In this document: positions 40,631 to 62,799 of the stretch, piece after piece | Position numbering within the stretch: the first letter of the stretch is position 1 | Layout: each line of letters begins with the position of its first letter | NCBI RefSeq assembly: GCF_003018255.1 | Contig: NZ_CP027440.1 | Source of the DNA: Escherichia coli | GTDB taxonomy: Bacteria; Pseudomonadota; Gammaproteobacteria; Enterobacterales; Enterobacteriaceae | DNA: 64,000 bases | Direction: 5' to 3' (one strand) | The notes under the pieces: model-generated | What the model was told of the DNA's origin: nothing | What the model saw: the letters and a program-made list of their open reading frames with translations, nothing else | Databases searched by the model: none | Position numbers and translations under genes: made by a program

Positions 40631-41071
40631 TCACCCTTTGGCCTGTAACTCAATGATATTATGCTCAAGTTTTGCGATGAGCTTAATCAGTTGTTCCAGT
40701 TCCTCTGCGGAGATGCCATGTAAAATTTCCGCGCGGGTTTTGTTAATAACAGCTTCCATTTCGCTGATCAGCGGCTCTGCCTTTTCCGTCAGTTTAATAC
40801 GTTTAGCCCGACGATCGCTGGCACAAGTTTGACGCGAAATTAACCCTTTTTCTTCCAGTTGGTCCAGAGTACGGACCAGTGATGGCTGCTCGATGCCAAT
40901 CGCTTTTGCCAGTTGAATTTGCGACTGGTCTGGAGGTAACTGATGGATATTGTGTAACGTAACCCAATGGGTTTGTGTTAACTCCAGCGGTTTCAGGCGA
41001 TGGTCTATCAGAGCACGCCATATGCGCACCAACCGTGCCAGATCAGAACCTAGTGGCGATTCCAATTTCAT
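40631..41071 (-). CDS. slyA: MarR-family transcriptional regulator SlyA
   Basis: ATG-initiated ORF of 146 aa; the commonly annotated 144-aa form would start at TTG 41065. Confidence 0.92.
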
Positions 41072-41081
41072 CTCCTTATAA

Positions 41082-41093
41082 TTAGCTTGCTAA
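41082..41093. promoter_or_regulatory. SlyA binding site in the slyA leader
   Basis: Minus-strand TTAGCAAGCTAA, matching the SlyA consensus as I recall it; just upstream of the slyA SD (AAGGAG). Confidence 0.6.
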
Positions 41094-60148: not shown

Positions 60149-61360
60149 ATGCAACCTGGGAAAAGATTTTTAGTCTGGCTGGCGGGTTTGAGCGTACTCG
60201 GTTTTCTGGCAACCGATATGTATCTGCCTGCTTTCGCCGCCATACAGGCCGACCTGCAAACGCCTGCGTCTGCTGTCAGTGCCAGCCTTAGTCTGTTCCT
60301 TGCCGGTTTTGCCGCAGCCCAGCTTCTGTGGGGGCCGCTCTCCGACCGTTATGGTCGTAAACCGGTATTATTAATCGGCCTGACAATTTTTGCGTTAGGT
60401 AGTCTGGGGATGCTGTGGGTAGAAAACGCCGCTACGCTGCTGGTATTGCGTTTTGTACAGGCTGTGGGTGTCTGCGCCGCGGCAGTTATCTGGCAAGCGT
60501 TAGTGACGGATTATTATCCTTCACAGAAAGTTAACCGTATTTTTGCGACCATCATGCCGCTGGTGGGTCTATCTCCGGCACTGGCTCCTCTGTTAGGAAG
60601 CTGGCTGCTGGTCCATTTTTCCTGGCAGGCGATTTTCGCCACCCTGTTTGCCATTACCGTGGTGCTGATTCTGCCTATTTTCTGGCTCAAACCCACGACG
60701 AAGGCCCGTAACAATAGTCAGGATGGTCTGACCTTTACCGACCTGCTACGTTCTAAAACCTATCGCGGCAACGTGCTGATATATGCGGCCTGTTCAGCCA
60801 GTTTTTTTGCATGGCTGACCGGCTCACCGTTCATCCTTAGTGAAATGGGCTACAGCCCGGCAGTTATTGGTTTAAGTTATGTCCCGCAAACTATCGCGTT
60901 TCTGATTGGTGGTTATGGCTGTCGCGCCGCACTGCAGAAATGGCAAGGCAAGCAGTTATTACCGTGGTTGCTGGTACTGTTTGCTGTCAGCGTCATTGCG
61001 ACCTGGGCTGCGGGCTTCATTAGCCATGTGTCGCTAGTCGAAATCCTGATCCCATTCTGTGTGATGGCGATTGCCAATGGCGCGATCTACCCGATTGTTG
61101 TCGCCCAGGCGCTGCGTCCCTTCCCACATGCAACTGGTCGCGCCGCAGCGTTGCAGAACACTCTACAACTGGGTCTGTGCTTCCTCGCAAGTCTGGTAGT
61201 TTCCTGGCTTATCAGTATCAGCACGCCATTGCTCACCACCACCAGCGTGATGTTATCAACAGTAGTGCTGGTCGCTCTGGGTTACATGATGCAACGTTGT
61301 GAAGAAGTAGACTGTCAGAATCATGGCAATGCCGAAGTCGCTCATAGCGAATCACACTGA
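60149..61360 (+). CDS. punC: MFS (Bcr/CflA-type) transporter, purine nucleoside transport
   Basis: 403 aa, 12 TM. Confidence 0.88.
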
Positions 61361-61650
61361 TCTATATCGATATGATTATACTTAGGCTGCTAACAAAATT
61401 TTGTTGTATGATTGAAATTAGCGGCCTATACTAATTTCGAGTTGTTAAAGCTACGATAAATATTATGTTTTTACGGGGACAGGATCGTTCCCGACTCACT
61501 ATGGATGGTCATTTCGGCAAGGGTTCCTCCTTTCCCTCTGTTCTACGTCGGATTATAGACTCGCGGTTTTTTCTGCGAGATTTCTCACAAAGCCCAAAAA
61601 GCGTCTACGCTGTTTTAAGGTTCTGATCACCGACCAGTGATGGAGAAACT

Positions 61651-62799
61651 ATGAGTTCATCGTGTATAGAAGAAGTCAGTGTACCGGATGACAACTGGTA
61701 CCGTATCGCCAACGAATTACTTAGCCGTGCCGGTATAGCCATTAACGGTTCTGCCCCGGCGGATATTCGTGTGAAAAACCCCGATTTTTTTAAACGCGTT
61801 CTGCAGGAAGGATCGTTGGGGTTAGGCGAAAGTTATATGGATGGCTGGTGGGAATGTGACCGACTGGATATGTTTTTTAGCAAAGTCTTACGCGCAGGTC
61901 TCGAGAACCAACTCCCCCATCATTTCAAAGACACGCTGCGTATTGCCGGCGCTCGTCTCTTCAATCTGCAGAGTAAAAAACGTGCCTGGATAGTCGGCAA
62001 AGAGCATTACGATTTGGGTAATGACTTGTTCAGCCGCATGCTTGATCCCTTCATGCAATATTCCTGCGCTTACTGGAAAGATGCCGATAATCTGGAATCT
62101 GCCCAGCAGGCGAAGCTCAAAATGATTTGTGAAAAATTGCAGTTAAAACCAGGGATGCGCGTACTGGATATTGGCTGCGGCTGGGGCGGACTGGCGCACT
62201 ACATGGCATCTAATTATGACGTAAGCGTGGTTGGCGTCACCATTTCTGCCGAACAGCAAAAAATGGCTCAGGAACGCTGTGAAGGCCTGGATGTCACCAT
62301 TTTGCTGCAAGATTATCGTGACCTGAACGACCAGTTTGATCGTATTGTTTCTGTGGGGATGTTCGAGCACGTCGGACCGAAAAATTACGATACCTATTTT
62401 GCGGTGGTGGATCGTAATTTGAAACCGGAAGGCATATTCCTGCTCCATACTATCGGTTCGAAAAAAACCGATCTGAATGTTGATCCCTGGATTAATAAAT
62501 ATATTTTTCCGAACGGTTGCCTGCCCTCTGTACGCCAGATTGCTCAGTCCAGCGAACCCCACTTTGTGATGGAAGACTGGCATAACTTCGGTGCTGATTA
62601 CGATACTACGTTGATGGCGTGGTATGAACGATTCCTCGCCGCATGGCCAGAAATTGCGGATAACTACAGTGAACGCTTTAAACGGATGTTTACCTATTAT
62701 CTGAATGCCTGTGCAGGTGCTTTCCGCGCCCGTGATATTCAGCTCTGGCAGGTGGTGTTCTCACGCGGTGTTGAAAACGGCCTTCGAGTCGCTCGCTAA
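61651..62799 (+). CDS. cfa: cyclopropane-fatty-acyl-phospholipid synthase (SAM-dependent)
   Basis: 382 aa; SAM-binding motif VLDIGCGWGG; recognised Cfa. Confidence 0.95.
   Translation: MSSSCIEEVSVPDDNWYRIANELLSRAGIAINGSAPADIRVKNPDFFKRVLQEGSLGLGESYMDGWWECDRLDMFFSKVLRAGLENQLPHHFKDTLRIAGARLFNLQSKKRAWIVGKEHYDLGNDLFSRMLDPFMQYSCAYWKDADNLESAQQAKLKMICEKLQLKPGMRVLDIGCGWGGLAHYMASNYDVSVVGVTISAEQQKMAQERCEGLDVTILLQDYRDLNDQFDRIVSVGMFEHVGPKNYDTYFAVVDRNLKPEGIFLLHTIGSKKTDLNVDPWINKYIFPNGCLPSVRQIAQSSEPHFVMEDWHNFGADYDTTLMAWYERFLAAWPEIADNYSERFKRMFTYYLNACAGAFRARDIQLWQVVFSRGVENGLRVAR

What the first reader, a model, noticed from the sequence alone, without database searches (positions are those of the whole stretch)
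61361..61650. Long structured leader upstream of cfa
A 290-bp spacer separates punC and cfa and contains several short stem-loops (for example CTCGC-GGTTTTTTCT-GCGAG near 61563-61583). cfa is known to have a long 5' UTR targeted by small RNAs and an RpoS-dependent proximal promoter, so these structures are probably functional in post-transcriptional control.
Basis: partly seen in the sequence, partly recalled or inferred. Interest (0 to 1): 0.2.

Follow-up and report, generated by a model that had tools for sequence, protein, structure and literature searches.

The report
Known regulatory leader of E. coli cfa

Summary
punC ends at 61360 and cfa starts at 61651, a 290-bp spacer. The quoted stem-loop exists but lies at 61560-61579 and is 7 bp with a U6 loop.

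The window is E. coli, 100% identical to strain 042. Promoter plus leader are at least 99% identical in 5407 of 5424 complete genomes and differ from K-12 by one base.

Every published element maps exactly:
- sigma70 promoter, start at 61439 (212-nt UTR)
- Hfq site
- CpxQ-site stem-loop and CU-rich rut tract
- RydC/ArrS site
- RNase E site GG|AUUAU
- sigmaS promoter, start at 61617 (34-nt UTR)

The leader as a whole folds no better than shuffles (z = -0.58). The experimentally characterised functional stem-loop is a third, weaker one at 61516-61535. The main known mechanism is sRNA control of Rho-dependent termination.

Verdict: already known, low interest.

Side lead: a palindrome at 61382-61393, just upstream of the sigma70 -35, is conserved across genera and matches the SlyA consensus. 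No paper I could search links SlyA to cfa.

The parts
61382..61393 (.). Conserved palindrome TTAGGCTGCTAA (TTAG-N3-GCTAA), centred at -51.5 from the sigma70 start. It is a candidate operator that matches the SlyA consensus TTAGCAAGCTAA.
   Evidence: The half-sites are invariant in at least 78 of 80 species; 9 species match the consensus exactly and 40 have one mismatch. The only other TTAGNNNGCTAA in the window is the perfect consensus next to slyA at 41082-41093. The consensus comes from PMC5797941. Binding was not tested.
61404..61432 (+). Distal sigma70 promoter P1: -35 TTGTAT (61404-61409), 17-bp spacer, -10 TATACT (61427-61432). The start site is G at 61439.
   Evidence: The published 212-nt UTR (PMC6755755) places the start at 61651-212 = 61439. 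TTG of the -35 and CCTATACT are invariant or nearly so in 80 species. The sequence is identical to K-12. The simple scan missed it because the -35 matches only 3 of 6.
61439..61650 (+). Long cfa 5' UTR, 212 nt (+1..+212).
   Evidence: Mapped from PMC6755755 and PMC12691595. There is one base difference from K-12, at 61507. The region 61376-61650 is at least 99% identical in 5407 of 5424 E. coli genomes.
61456..61490 (+). Hfq-binding region (-195..-161), including the U run UGUUUUUAC at 61466-61474.
   Evidence: Coordinates are converted from PMC6755755 (Salmonella CLIP-seq site; the E. coli H4 mutant of the U run loses CpxQ regulation). The sequence is present.
61474..61493 (+). Hairpin A (+36..+55): CGGGGAC-AGGAUC-GUUCCCG. 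Conserved RNA hairpin with GGA in the loop.
   Evidence: dG -11.2 kcal/mol, z = -2.7. 6 of 7 pairs carry compensatory changes and 93% of cells are paired. Recovered by RNAalifold. The loop keeps GGA in 66 of 80 species, and the tail is U-rich in 54 of 80. A 3' end at +59 is reported in K-12 (PMC12691595, citing PMC7815308).
61516..61535 (+). Published stem-loop +78..+97 (GGCAAGG-GUUCCU-CCUUUCC). The 5' arm is the CpxQ site (61516-61523); the loop and 3' arm are part of the rut tract.
   Evidence: G78, G79 and C80 of PMC12691595 correspond to 61516-61518. CpxQ nucleotides 4-11 pair with 61516-61523 at -14.1 kcal/mol, and C11 pairs with G-135 as published. The stem is weak on its own (-6.3 kcal/mol, z = -0.9) and mostly invariant, so covariation is uninformative.
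61524..61539 (+). CU-rich tract UUCCUCCUUUCCCUCU (+86..+101), the core of the Rho utilisation site.
   Evidence: Position and requirement for Rho-dependent regulation are from PMC12691595. The sequence is present. 61524-61559 is 31% C, 14% G and 42% U. Strongly conserved.
61542..61556 (+). Pairing sites of the activating sRNAs: RydC at 61542-61552 (-109..-99) and ArrS at 61547-61556 (-104..-95).
   Evidence: Seed duplexes with the K-12 sRNAs: RydC nucleotides 3-13, -17.7 kcal/mol, 1 of 500 shuffled seeds as good; ArrS nucleotides 1-10, -12.8 kcal/mol, 2 of 500. UCUACGUCGG is invariant or nearly so in 80 species. The sites were validated genetically in PMC6755755.
61550..61556 (+). RNase E site GG|AUUAU, cut between 61551 (-100) and 61552 (-99).
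   Evidence: PMC6755755 (primer extension; G3 mutant). PMC12691595 shows that the G3 mutation also abolishes Rho dependence. The sequence is present.
61560..61579 (+). Hairpin B (+122..+141): CUCGCGG-UUUUUU-CUGCGAG. It is a conserved RNA hairpin with no assigned role in the papers I could read.
   Evidence: dG -11.1 kcal/mol, z = -3.3. Pairing probability is about 0.99. 4 of 7 pairs carry compensatory changes and 98% of cells are paired; 60 cells are G-U and only 10 are non-pairs, which fits RNA on the + strand. Loop length and sequence vary, 3-7 nt. Recovered by RNAalifold.
61605..61617 (+). Proximal sigmaS promoter P2: extended -10 CTACGCT (61605-61611), start A at 61617.
   Evidence: The published 34-nt UTR (PMC6755755) gives 61651-34 = 61617. 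GCGTCTACGCTGTTTTAAGG is nearly invariant in 80 species. Reading it as matching the sigmaS -10 pattern with C at -13 rests on my own knowledge.
61617..61650 (+). Short 34-nt 5' UTR, with the Shine-Dalgarno GGAG at 61642-61645 and a weak stem AUCAC/GUGAU (61626-61630/61637-61641).
   Evidence: PMC6755755 gives the isoform. The fold is -7.9 kcal/mol, z = -1.2. The stem is invariant, with no covariation.
61651..62799 (+). cfa coding sequence (382 aa).
   Evidence: ORF. Annotated as cyclopropane fatty acyl phospholipid synthase in strain 042 and K-12.

Best explanation
The interval is the native regulatory region of E. coli cfa and works as published for K-12 and Salmonella.

1. A constitutive sigma70 promoter (-35 at 61404-09, -10 at 61427-32) starts at 61439 and makes an mRNA with a 212-nt leader. 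A sigmaS promoter (-10 at 61605-11) starts at 61617 and makes a 34-nt leader that escapes all leader-based control.
2. Within the long leader, a CU-rich tract (61524-39) plus the sequence just downstream form a Rho utilisation site that causes premature termination.
3. A weak stem-loop (61516-35) partly hides that tract. CpxQ pairs with its 5' arm (61516-23), opens it and increases termination.
4. RydC and ArrS pair just downstream (61542-56). They cover the other part of the rut site and the RNase E site GG|AUUAU, which reduces termination and, to a lesser degree, decay.
5. An upstream Hfq site (61456-90) is needed for CpxQ action.

Shown versus inferred. The mechanism is shown experimentally in the literature for K-12 and Salmonella. 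That it applies to this sequence is inferred from near identity.

Their roles are inferred only:
- A is most likely the structured part of the Hfq-binding module. It is also the likely stop or protection point that yields the reported +59 3' end.
- B is most likely a structural boundary or pause element at the 3' edge of the rut region. It lies in the +118..+138 segment that the published truncations show is needed for Rho dependence.
For: Identity and conservation:
- 100% identity to E. coli 042, flanked by annotated punC and cfa.
- One SNP against K-12 across 296 nt.
- At least 99% identity in 5407 of 5424 genomes.

Published positions fall on the expected bases:
- G-135 = 61516 and G-101 = 61550.
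- GG|AUUAU at 61550-56.
- G78, G79, C80 at 61516-18.
- The 16-nt CU tract at 61524-39 (PMC6755755, PMC12691595).

sRNA pairing. K-12 RydC, ArrS and CpxQ seeds find their published sites as the best duplex in the leader, better than nearly all shuffled seeds.

Cross-genus conservation. Promoter hexamers, rut tract, RydC site and the P2 region are invariant or nearly so in 80 genera and species.

Hairpins A and B. Local z-scores of -2.7 and -3.3, compensatory pairs 6 of 7 and 4 of 7, independent RNAalifold recovery, and a G-U excess over non-pairs for B.

Rho dependence of the cfa leader was found independently in PMC7815308.
Against: - No transcript data exist for this strain, so start sites are transferred from K-12 by sequence identity.
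- The simple sigma70 scan found no promoter in 61200-61800, because the -35 matches only 3 of 6.
- The leader as a whole is not more stable than shuffles (z = -0.58).
- The key published stem-loop is thermodynamically weak and shows no informative covariation.
- The roles proposed for hairpins A and B have no direct support. In a thermodynamic model, breaking B changes the accessibility of the rut and RydC sites by at most 0.15. No 3' end near B is reported in the papers read.
- The relative weight of Rho versus RNase E differs between the 2019 and 2025 papers.
Confidence: 0.9

Rival explanations
1. The inverted repeat at 61560-61579 acts as DNA rather than RNA: a palindromic operator for a dimeric regulator located at -57..-38 of the sigmaS promoter P2.
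For: It lies at a typical activator distance upstream of P2 (start at 61617). The stem sequence is fairly conserved while the centre varies. The flanking ATTTCTCAC is invariant and overlaps the P2 -35 region.
Against: Departures from Watson-Crick symmetry are almost all G-U on the + strand: 60 cells against 10 non-pairs. On the - strand those positions would be A.C mismatches, and for a protein they would simply be a loss of half-site symmetry. Four pairs switch by double changes (G-C to A-U), which keeps pairing but not base identity. The spacer length varies from 3 to 7 nt, which a rigid dimer site would not tolerate.
Confidence: 0.08
2. CsrA binds the long leader at conserved GGA motifs and contributes to repression or to Rho access, as it does on pgaA. 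The motifs are the hairpin A loop at 61482-84, AUGGAUGG at 61503-05, and the Shine-Dalgarno GGAG at 61642-45.
For: GGA sits in the hairpin A loop in 66 of 80 species, and a second GGA about 20 nt downstream is kept in 79 of 80. The E. coli loop context ACAGGAUC resembles the CsrA SELEX core (my own knowledge). Ribosome profiling in Salmonella reported that CsrA represses cfa translation in mLPM medium (PMC6347204).
Against: An EMSA with a cfa 5' UTR fragment from EPEC showed no CsrA binding, and the authors concluded the effect is indirect (PMC6333774); I could not determine the extent of that fragment. The same segment overlaps the Hfq CLIP site and the region where GcvB is said to bind (PMC6755755, PMC12691595), either of which could explain the conservation.
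Confidence: 0.12
3. The stem-loops are incidental. The spacer is conserved only because of promoters and sRNA pairing sites, and the hairpins have no function of their own.
For: The whole-leader folding energy is indistinguishable from shuffles. Published models explain regulation without hairpins A or B (PMC12691595). Breaking B in silico barely changes the accessibility of neighbouring sites.
Against: Compensatory double changes occur in 10 of the 14 pairs of A and B, with 93-98% pairing across 80 species. All five measures exceed 500 of 500 shuffles and all slid registers. RNAalifold picks out exactly these two helices. The shuffle control does not correct for phylogeny, so this evidence is strong but not absolute.
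Confidence: 0.1
4. The leader encodes a small protein or regulatory upstream ORF: the 53-codon ATG ORF at 61465-61626.
For: The ORF is listed mechanically.
Against: The aligned start codon is kept in only 35 of 80 species, and in 29 of those the frame stops after 1-2 codons. Indels in the region are not multiples of three.
Confidence: 0.02

Closest known systems
E. coli K-12 / Salmonella cfa promoter region and long 5' UTR (two promoters; RydC, ArrS, CpxQ, Hfq, RNase E, Rho)
   Same: It is the same locus. It differs by one base from K-12 over 296 nt, and every mapped element is present at the expected position (PMC6755755, PMC12691595, PMC7815308).
   Different: Nothing of substance. 61507 is G where K-12 has A (+69), and G is the state shared with other genera. 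Hairpins A and B and the upstream palindrome are present in K-12 too, but they are not discussed as elements in the papers I could read.
rpoS 5' UTR (sRNA-mediated anti-termination of Rho in a long leader)
   Same: A long leader in which Hfq-dependent sRNAs pair far from the ribosome binding site and counteract premature Rho-dependent termination (as summarised in PMC12691595).
   Different: In rpoS the sRNAs also open a translation-inhibitory hairpin. In cfa the effects are independent of translation, and one sRNA (CpxQ) increases termination by opening a stem that hides the rut tract.
pgaA leader (CsrA remodels structure to expose a rut site)
   Same: A stem that sequesters a rut site is opened by a trans-acting factor, which increases Rho termination. 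PMC12691595 draws this comparison itself.
   Different: The factor is a protein (CsrA) rather than an sRNA. CsrA binding to cfa is unproven, and one EMSA contradicts it (PMC6333774).
SlyA operator of the slyA promoter (TTAGCAAGCTAA)
   Same: The palindrome at 61382-93 shares both half-sites (TTAG/GCTAA). In 9 other species it is identical to the consensus found at 41082-93 next to slyA in this same window (PMC5797941).
   Different: The E. coli copy has two central mismatches. At up to 2 mismatches such sites are as frequent as chance in the window. No binding or regulation data were found.

Membership tests
cfa long-isoform regulatory leader (E. coli/Salmonella) | Located directly upstream of the cfa coding sequence, downstream of punC (ydhC). 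| tested here: met
   ORFs and RefSeq annotation.
cfa long-isoform regulatory leader (E. coli/Salmonella) | Distal sigma70 promoter giving a 212-nt 5' UTR. | tested here: met
   The sequence is identical to K-12 around -212. -35 TTGTAT and -10 TATACT have a 17-bp spacer and are conserved in 80 species. This is met at sequence level only.
cfa long-isoform regulatory leader (E. coli/Salmonella) | Actual transcription initiation at -212 and -34 in this strain. | not testable with these tools
   This needs 5' RACE or dRNA-seq. It is inferred from identity with K-12, where both starts were seen by primer extension (PMC6755755).
cfa long-isoform regulatory leader (E. coli/Salmonella) | Proximal sigmaS promoter giving a 34-nt 5' UTR. 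| tested here: met
   CTACGCT at 61605-11, 6 nt before 61617. Invariant in the alignment and identical to K-12.
cfa long-isoform regulatory leader (E. coli/Salmonella) | RydC/ArrS seed-complementary site next to the RNase E site GG|AUUAU. | tested here: met
   Duplexes at 61542-52 (-17.7 kcal/mol) and 61547-56 (-12.8 kcal/mol); 1 and 2 of 500 shuffled seeds do as well. GGAUUAU lies at 61550-56.
cfa long-isoform regulatory leader (E. coli/Salmonella) | CpxQ site forming the 5' arm of a stem-loop that sequesters a CU-rich rut tract. | tested here: met
   CpxQ nucleotides 4-11 pair with 61516-23. The stem 61516-22/61529-35, with the published C80.U95 mismatch, appears in the MFE fold. The CU tract is at 61524-39.
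cfa long-isoform regulatory leader (E. coli/Salmonella) | Rho-dependent premature termination modulated by the sRNAs. | not testable with these tools
   Shown for K-12 and for a Salmonella fusion (PMC12691595, PMC7815308). Transferred here by sequence identity.
Rfam-curated cis-regulatory RNA family | Match to any Rfam covariance model. | tested here: not met
   The only hit was a spurious snoRNA match of 16 bits, E = 4.6, against a gathering score of 40. The leader is not a member of any curated family.
Intrinsic (Rho-independent) terminator/attenuator | G+C-rich hairpin followed immediately by a run of at least 5 U. | tested here: not met
   No terminator-like site was found in 61200-61800. 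The tail of hairpin B is AUUUCU. The tail of hairpin A is ACUCAC in E. coli and UUUC/UUUU in 54 of 80 other species.
SlyA (MarR-family) operator | Palindrome close to TTAGCAAGCTAA (relaxed form TTA-N6-TAA). | tested here: met
   TTAGGCTGCTAA has 2 mismatches and both half-sites intact. 49 of 80 orthologous sites have at most 1 mismatch.
SlyA (MarR-family) operator | SlyA binding and SlyA-dependent change in transcription. | not testable with these tools
   No report was found in the searchable library.

The most novel reading that the evidence does not exclude
The published cfa model may be missing three conserved elements that lie inside this interval:
1. A palindrome matching the SlyA consensus at -57..-46 of the sigma70 promoter (61382-93). 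This would give the 'constitutive' promoter a SlyA (possibly H-NS-antagonising) transcriptional input.
2. Hairpin B (61560-79), a structure-dependent component of the Rho termination zone, acting as a pause or boundary element.
3. Hairpin A (61474-93), whose loop GGA together with a second GGA could form a protein-binding module (Hfq is known to bind there; CsrA is possible) and which defines the +59 3' end.

The probability given is that at least one of these proves to be a real, separable regulatory input.
Probability: 0.35. Interest if true: 0.35.

Novelty: already known. Interest (0 to 1): 0.15.

Why it matters
cfa controls cyclopropanation of membrane lipids and acid resistance. Its leader is a textbook hub where several sRNAs converge, and it is the first reported case of an sRNA that increases Rho-dependent termination.

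Re-finding it in a genome scan adds nothing new. It does show that the scan recognises real regulatory leaders.

The modest added value here has four parts:
- A coordinate-exact map of all published elements onto this sequence.
- Evidence that only two of the hairpins, neither of them the experimentally characterised one, are maintained by compensatory evolution across 80 Enterobacteriaceae species.
- The observation that those two hairpins have no assigned role in the papers I could read.
- A conserved SlyA-type palindrome upstream of the sigma70 promoter, which could connect cfa to a regulator of envelope and virulence genes. This is cheap to test.

Tried and rejected
- **Rfam scan at E up to 10.** Only a spurious snoRNA hit.
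- **Consensus promoter/terminator scan.** Nothing found. This is uninformative, because the known P1 has a 3-of-6 -35 and P2 is sigmaS-type.
- **Full-length sRNA-leader duplexfold.** It gave long, meaningless duplexes no better than shuffles. I replaced it with seed-only duplexes.
- **'Insulator' idea, that hairpin B keeps the rut and RydC sites single-stranded.** Breaking either arm in silico changes mean unpaired probability by at most 0.15, and the compensatory mutant equals wild type. Not supported.
- **Alternative pairing of hairpin B's 3' arm with the invariant CUCAC at 61584-88 (a possible switch).** Only -3.4 kcal/mol in E. coli with one mismatch. All columns are invariant, so there is no covariation either way. 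Left open but unsupported.
- **Hairpin sequestering the Shine-Dalgarno sequence in the short UTR.** Weak (z = -1.2) and without covariation.
- **The 11-bp inverted repeat 61383-93/61418-28 as a punC terminator or RNA hairpin.** It is stable in E. coli (-17.1 kcal/mol, z = -3.1), but only 75% of cells pair across species and it lacks a U tail. Its left arm is better explained as the SlyA-type palindrome.
- **53-codon ORF in the leader.** Not conserved.
- **Literature gaps.**
  - The original RydC-cfa paper (PMC3831309) is not held.
  - No supplementary tables mentioning cfa could be found for the SlyA papers.
  - I did not find the extent of the EPEC CsrA EMSA fragment.
- **Numbering note.** In my duplex RydC C4 pairs with G-100 and C5 with G-101, whereas PMC6755755 pairs the C4G mutant with G101C. 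This is a one-nucleotide ambiguity of no consequence.

Full report
**What is in the sequence**

A 421-nt query around the spacer is 100% identical to E. coli 042 and is present in 5424 of 5426 complete E. coli genomes, flanked by genes annotated punC and cfa. The 275 nt that hold the promoter and leader are at least 99% identical in 5407 of those genomes, and RefSeq annotates no feature there. Over 296 nt the window differs from K-12 MG1655 by one base: 61507 is G where K-12 has A. G is the state shared with other genera.

**The quoted stem-loop**

CTCGC-GGTTTTTTCT-GCGAG is real but sits at 61560-61579, 3-4 nt left of the stated position. It extends to a 7-bp stem (CUCGCGG/CUGCGAG) with a U6 loop. 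Its energy is -11.1 kcal/mol, z = -3.3 against dinucleotide shuffles. It forms with probability of about 0.99 in model transcripts of 152, 212 and 322 nt.

A second hairpin of equal strength lies at 61474-61493 (CGGGGAC-AGGAUC-GUUCCCG; -11.2 kcal/mol, z = -2.7). The leader as a whole is no more stable than shuffled sequence (z = -0.58). 'Structured leader' is therefore true locally, not globally.

**Mapping the literature onto the window**

cfa has two promoters. The sigma70 promoter gives a 212-nt 5' UTR and the sigmaS promoter gives a 34-nt 5' UTR. Only the long isoform responds to sRNAs (PMC6755755). These distances place the starts at 61439 and 61617.

- **P1.** Upstream of 61439 are TTGTAT (61404-09), a 17-bp spacer and TATACT (61427-32).
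- **P2.** Upstream of 61617 is CTACGCT (61605-11). Reading this as a sigmaS-type -10 with C at -13 rests on my own knowledge.
- **Hfq.** The Hfq site at -195..-161 is 61456-61490 and includes the U run UGUUUUUAC.
- **CpxQ stem-loop.** G78, G79 and C80 of the +78..+97 stem-loop are 61516-18, and the stem-loop spans 61516-61535.
- **rut tract.** The 16-nt CU-rich tract (+86..+101) is 61524-39.
- **RNase E.** The site GG|AUUAU is 61550-56, cut between -100 and -99 (PMC6755755, PMC12691595).

I took RydC, ArrS and CpxQ from the K-12 record and asked where their 5' seeds pair best in the leader.
- RydC nucleotides 3-13 pair with 61542-52 at -17.7 kcal/mol; 1 of 500 shuffled seeds does as well.
- ArrS nucleotides 1-10 pair with 61547-56 at -12.8 kcal/mol; 2 of 500.
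- CpxQ nucleotides 4-11 pair with 61516-23 at -14.1 kcal/mol; 11 of 500. C11 lies opposite G-135, as in the published compensatory mutants.

So all defining sequence features of the known leader are present.

**How it works (from the literature, transferred by identity)**

Rho terminates the long isoform prematurely. The CU-rich tract plus sequence up to about +138 is required for this. The +78..+97 stem partly hides the tract. CpxQ opens the stem and increases termination. RydC and ArrS bind just downstream and decrease termination. RNase E turnover at GG|AUUAU plays a lesser part (PMC12691595). Rho dependence of the cfa leader was seen independently (PMC7815308). The short isoform bypasses all of this (PMC6755755).

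**Comparative test of the structures**

A scan of one genome per species with the Cfa protein returned 80 Enterobacteriaceae loci, including Escherichia, Citrobacter, Salmonella, Klebsiella, Enterobacter, Kluyvera, Kosakonia and Cedecea. I aligned the upstream regions.

Promoter hexamers, the rut tract, the RydC site (UCUACGUCGG) and the whole P2-to-ATG segment are invariant or nearly so.

Pair counts on named helices:
- Hairpin A: 6 of 7 pairs with changes on both sides, 93% of cells paired.
- Hairpin B: 4 of 7 pairs, 98% paired.
- The published CpxQ stem and the Shine-Dalgarno-proximal stem are essentially invariant, so covariation says nothing about them.

For the five helices tested together, all five measures exceed 500 of 500 shuffles and all slid registers. 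That control does not correct for phylogeny.

RNAalifold, run without my structure, recovers exactly hairpins A and B as the helices with compensatory pairs.

In hairpin B, departures from Watson-Crick pairing are G-U in 60 cells and non-pairs in only 10. Its loop varies in length (3-7 nt) and in sequence. That pattern fits selection on a + strand RNA helix, not on a DNA operator.

**What the two conserved hairpins might do (inference)**

*Hairpin A.* It overlaps the Hfq CLIP site. It ends at +55, four nucleotides before a 3' end reported at +59 (PMC12691595, citing PMC7815308). In 54 of 80 species it is followed by a short U run, though not in E. coli. It is most simply the structured half of an Hfq-binding module and the point where a short 5' fragment ends.

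*Hairpin B.* It begins 8 nt after the RNase E cut. It lies in the +118..+138 interval whose inclusion makes truncated fusions Rho-dependent (PMC12691595). I favour a role as a boundary or pause element of the termination zone, but nothing I could run supports a specific mechanism.
- Breaking it in silico barely alters the accessibility of the rut and RydC sites.
- Its tail, AUUUCU, is not a terminator.
- The alternative pairing of its 3' arm with the invariant CUCAC at 61584-88 is weak and untestable by covariation.
- Neither hairpin is discussed as an element in the main texts I could read. The original 2013 paper was not available.

**Other readings excluded or down-weighted**

- The 53-codon ORF in the leader is not conserved.
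- No Rfam family matches.
- CsrA binding is suggested by conserved GGA motifs (66 of 80 in the hairpin A loop; 79 of 80 about 20 nt downstream) and by a Salmonella ribosome-profiling result (PMC6347204). An EPEC EMSA found no binding to a cfa 5' UTR fragment (PMC6333774).

**Side observation inside the interval**

The first 78 bp of the spacer are promoter, not leader. They contain TTAGGCTGCTAA at 61382-93, ten bp upstream of the -35.

- The pattern TTAGNNNGCTAA occurs at only one other place in the 64-kb window (three matches counting both strands, against 0.33 expected). That place is the perfect SlyA consensus TTAGCAAGCTAA at 41082-93, 11 bp upstream of the slyA ORF (consensus from PMC5797941).
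- At the cfa site the two half-sites are invariant in at least 78 of 80 species. Nine species carry the exact consensus and 40 are one mismatch away.
- The E. coli copy on its own, at 2 mismatches, is not statistically unusual. Its weight comes from conservation.
- No paper in the searchable library links SlyA to cfa.

This is a lead, not a finding.

**Verdict**

The feature is already known and of low interest. The residual novelty lies in two unassigned but evolutionarily maintained hairpins and a candidate SlyA operator.

Noticed in passing
window 61382-61393 (and 41082-41093): A palindrome TTAGGCTGCTAA lies 10 bp upstream of the -35 of the cfa sigma70 promoter and matches the SlyA consensus TTAGCAAGCTAA. 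The half-sites are invariant in at least 78 of 80 Enterobacteriaceae species, and 9 species carry the exact consensus. The only other TTAGNNNGCTAA in the window is the perfect consensus beside slyA itself (ORF 40631-41071, - strand). I found no literature linking SlyA and cfa.
   Followed up: partly
window 61474-61493: A conserved hairpin at +36..+55 of the long leader has 6 of 7 covarying pairs. GGA sits in its loop in 66 of 80 species, and a second GGA at 61503-05 is kept in 79 of 80. The hairpin overlaps the published Hfq site and ends 4 nt before the reported +59 3' end. In most other genera it is followed by UUUC/UUUU, in E. coli by ACUCAC. It could be a CsrA or Hfq module or a weak attenuator.
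   Followed up: partly
window 61383-61393 with 61418-61428: An 11-bp inverted repeat (TAGGCTGCTAA / TTAGCGGCCTA) spans the cfa P1 -35 region and reaches into the -10. As RNA it folds at -17.1 kcal/mol (z = -3.1). It is a perfect 12 bp with compensatory differences in Kluyvera but is absent in Citrobacter, Salmonella and Enterobacter (75% of cells paired overall). No canonical punC terminator is predicted, so punC read-through into cfa is possible.
   Followed up: partly
window 61575-61588: The 3' arm of hairpin B (GUGAG in most species) is complementary to the invariant CUCAC four nucleotides downstream. This gives a possible mutually exclusive pairing that repeats the 5' arm sequence CUCAC. 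It is weak in E. coli (one mismatch, -3.4 kcal/mol), all columns are invariant, and it overlaps the P2 -35 region.
   Followed up: partly
window 61507: This is the only difference from K-12 MG1655 in the 296 nt upstream of and into cfa: G here, A in K-12 (+69 of the long leader). G is the state in other genera, so the K-12 allele looks derived. It lies outside all mapped elements but inside the conserved AUGGAUGG motif.
   Followed up: no
window 61364-61373: A perfect 10-bp palindrome ATATCGATAT lies immediately after the punC stop codon. The segment is poorly conserved across genera.
   Followed up: no
locus L030, aligned to window ~61536-61545: The Pluralibacter MAG carries a 10-nt insertion that duplicates CTGTTCTACG. 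This creates a partial second copy of the RydC-site sequence (UCUACG, then C in place of U) upstream of the intact site.
   Followed up: no
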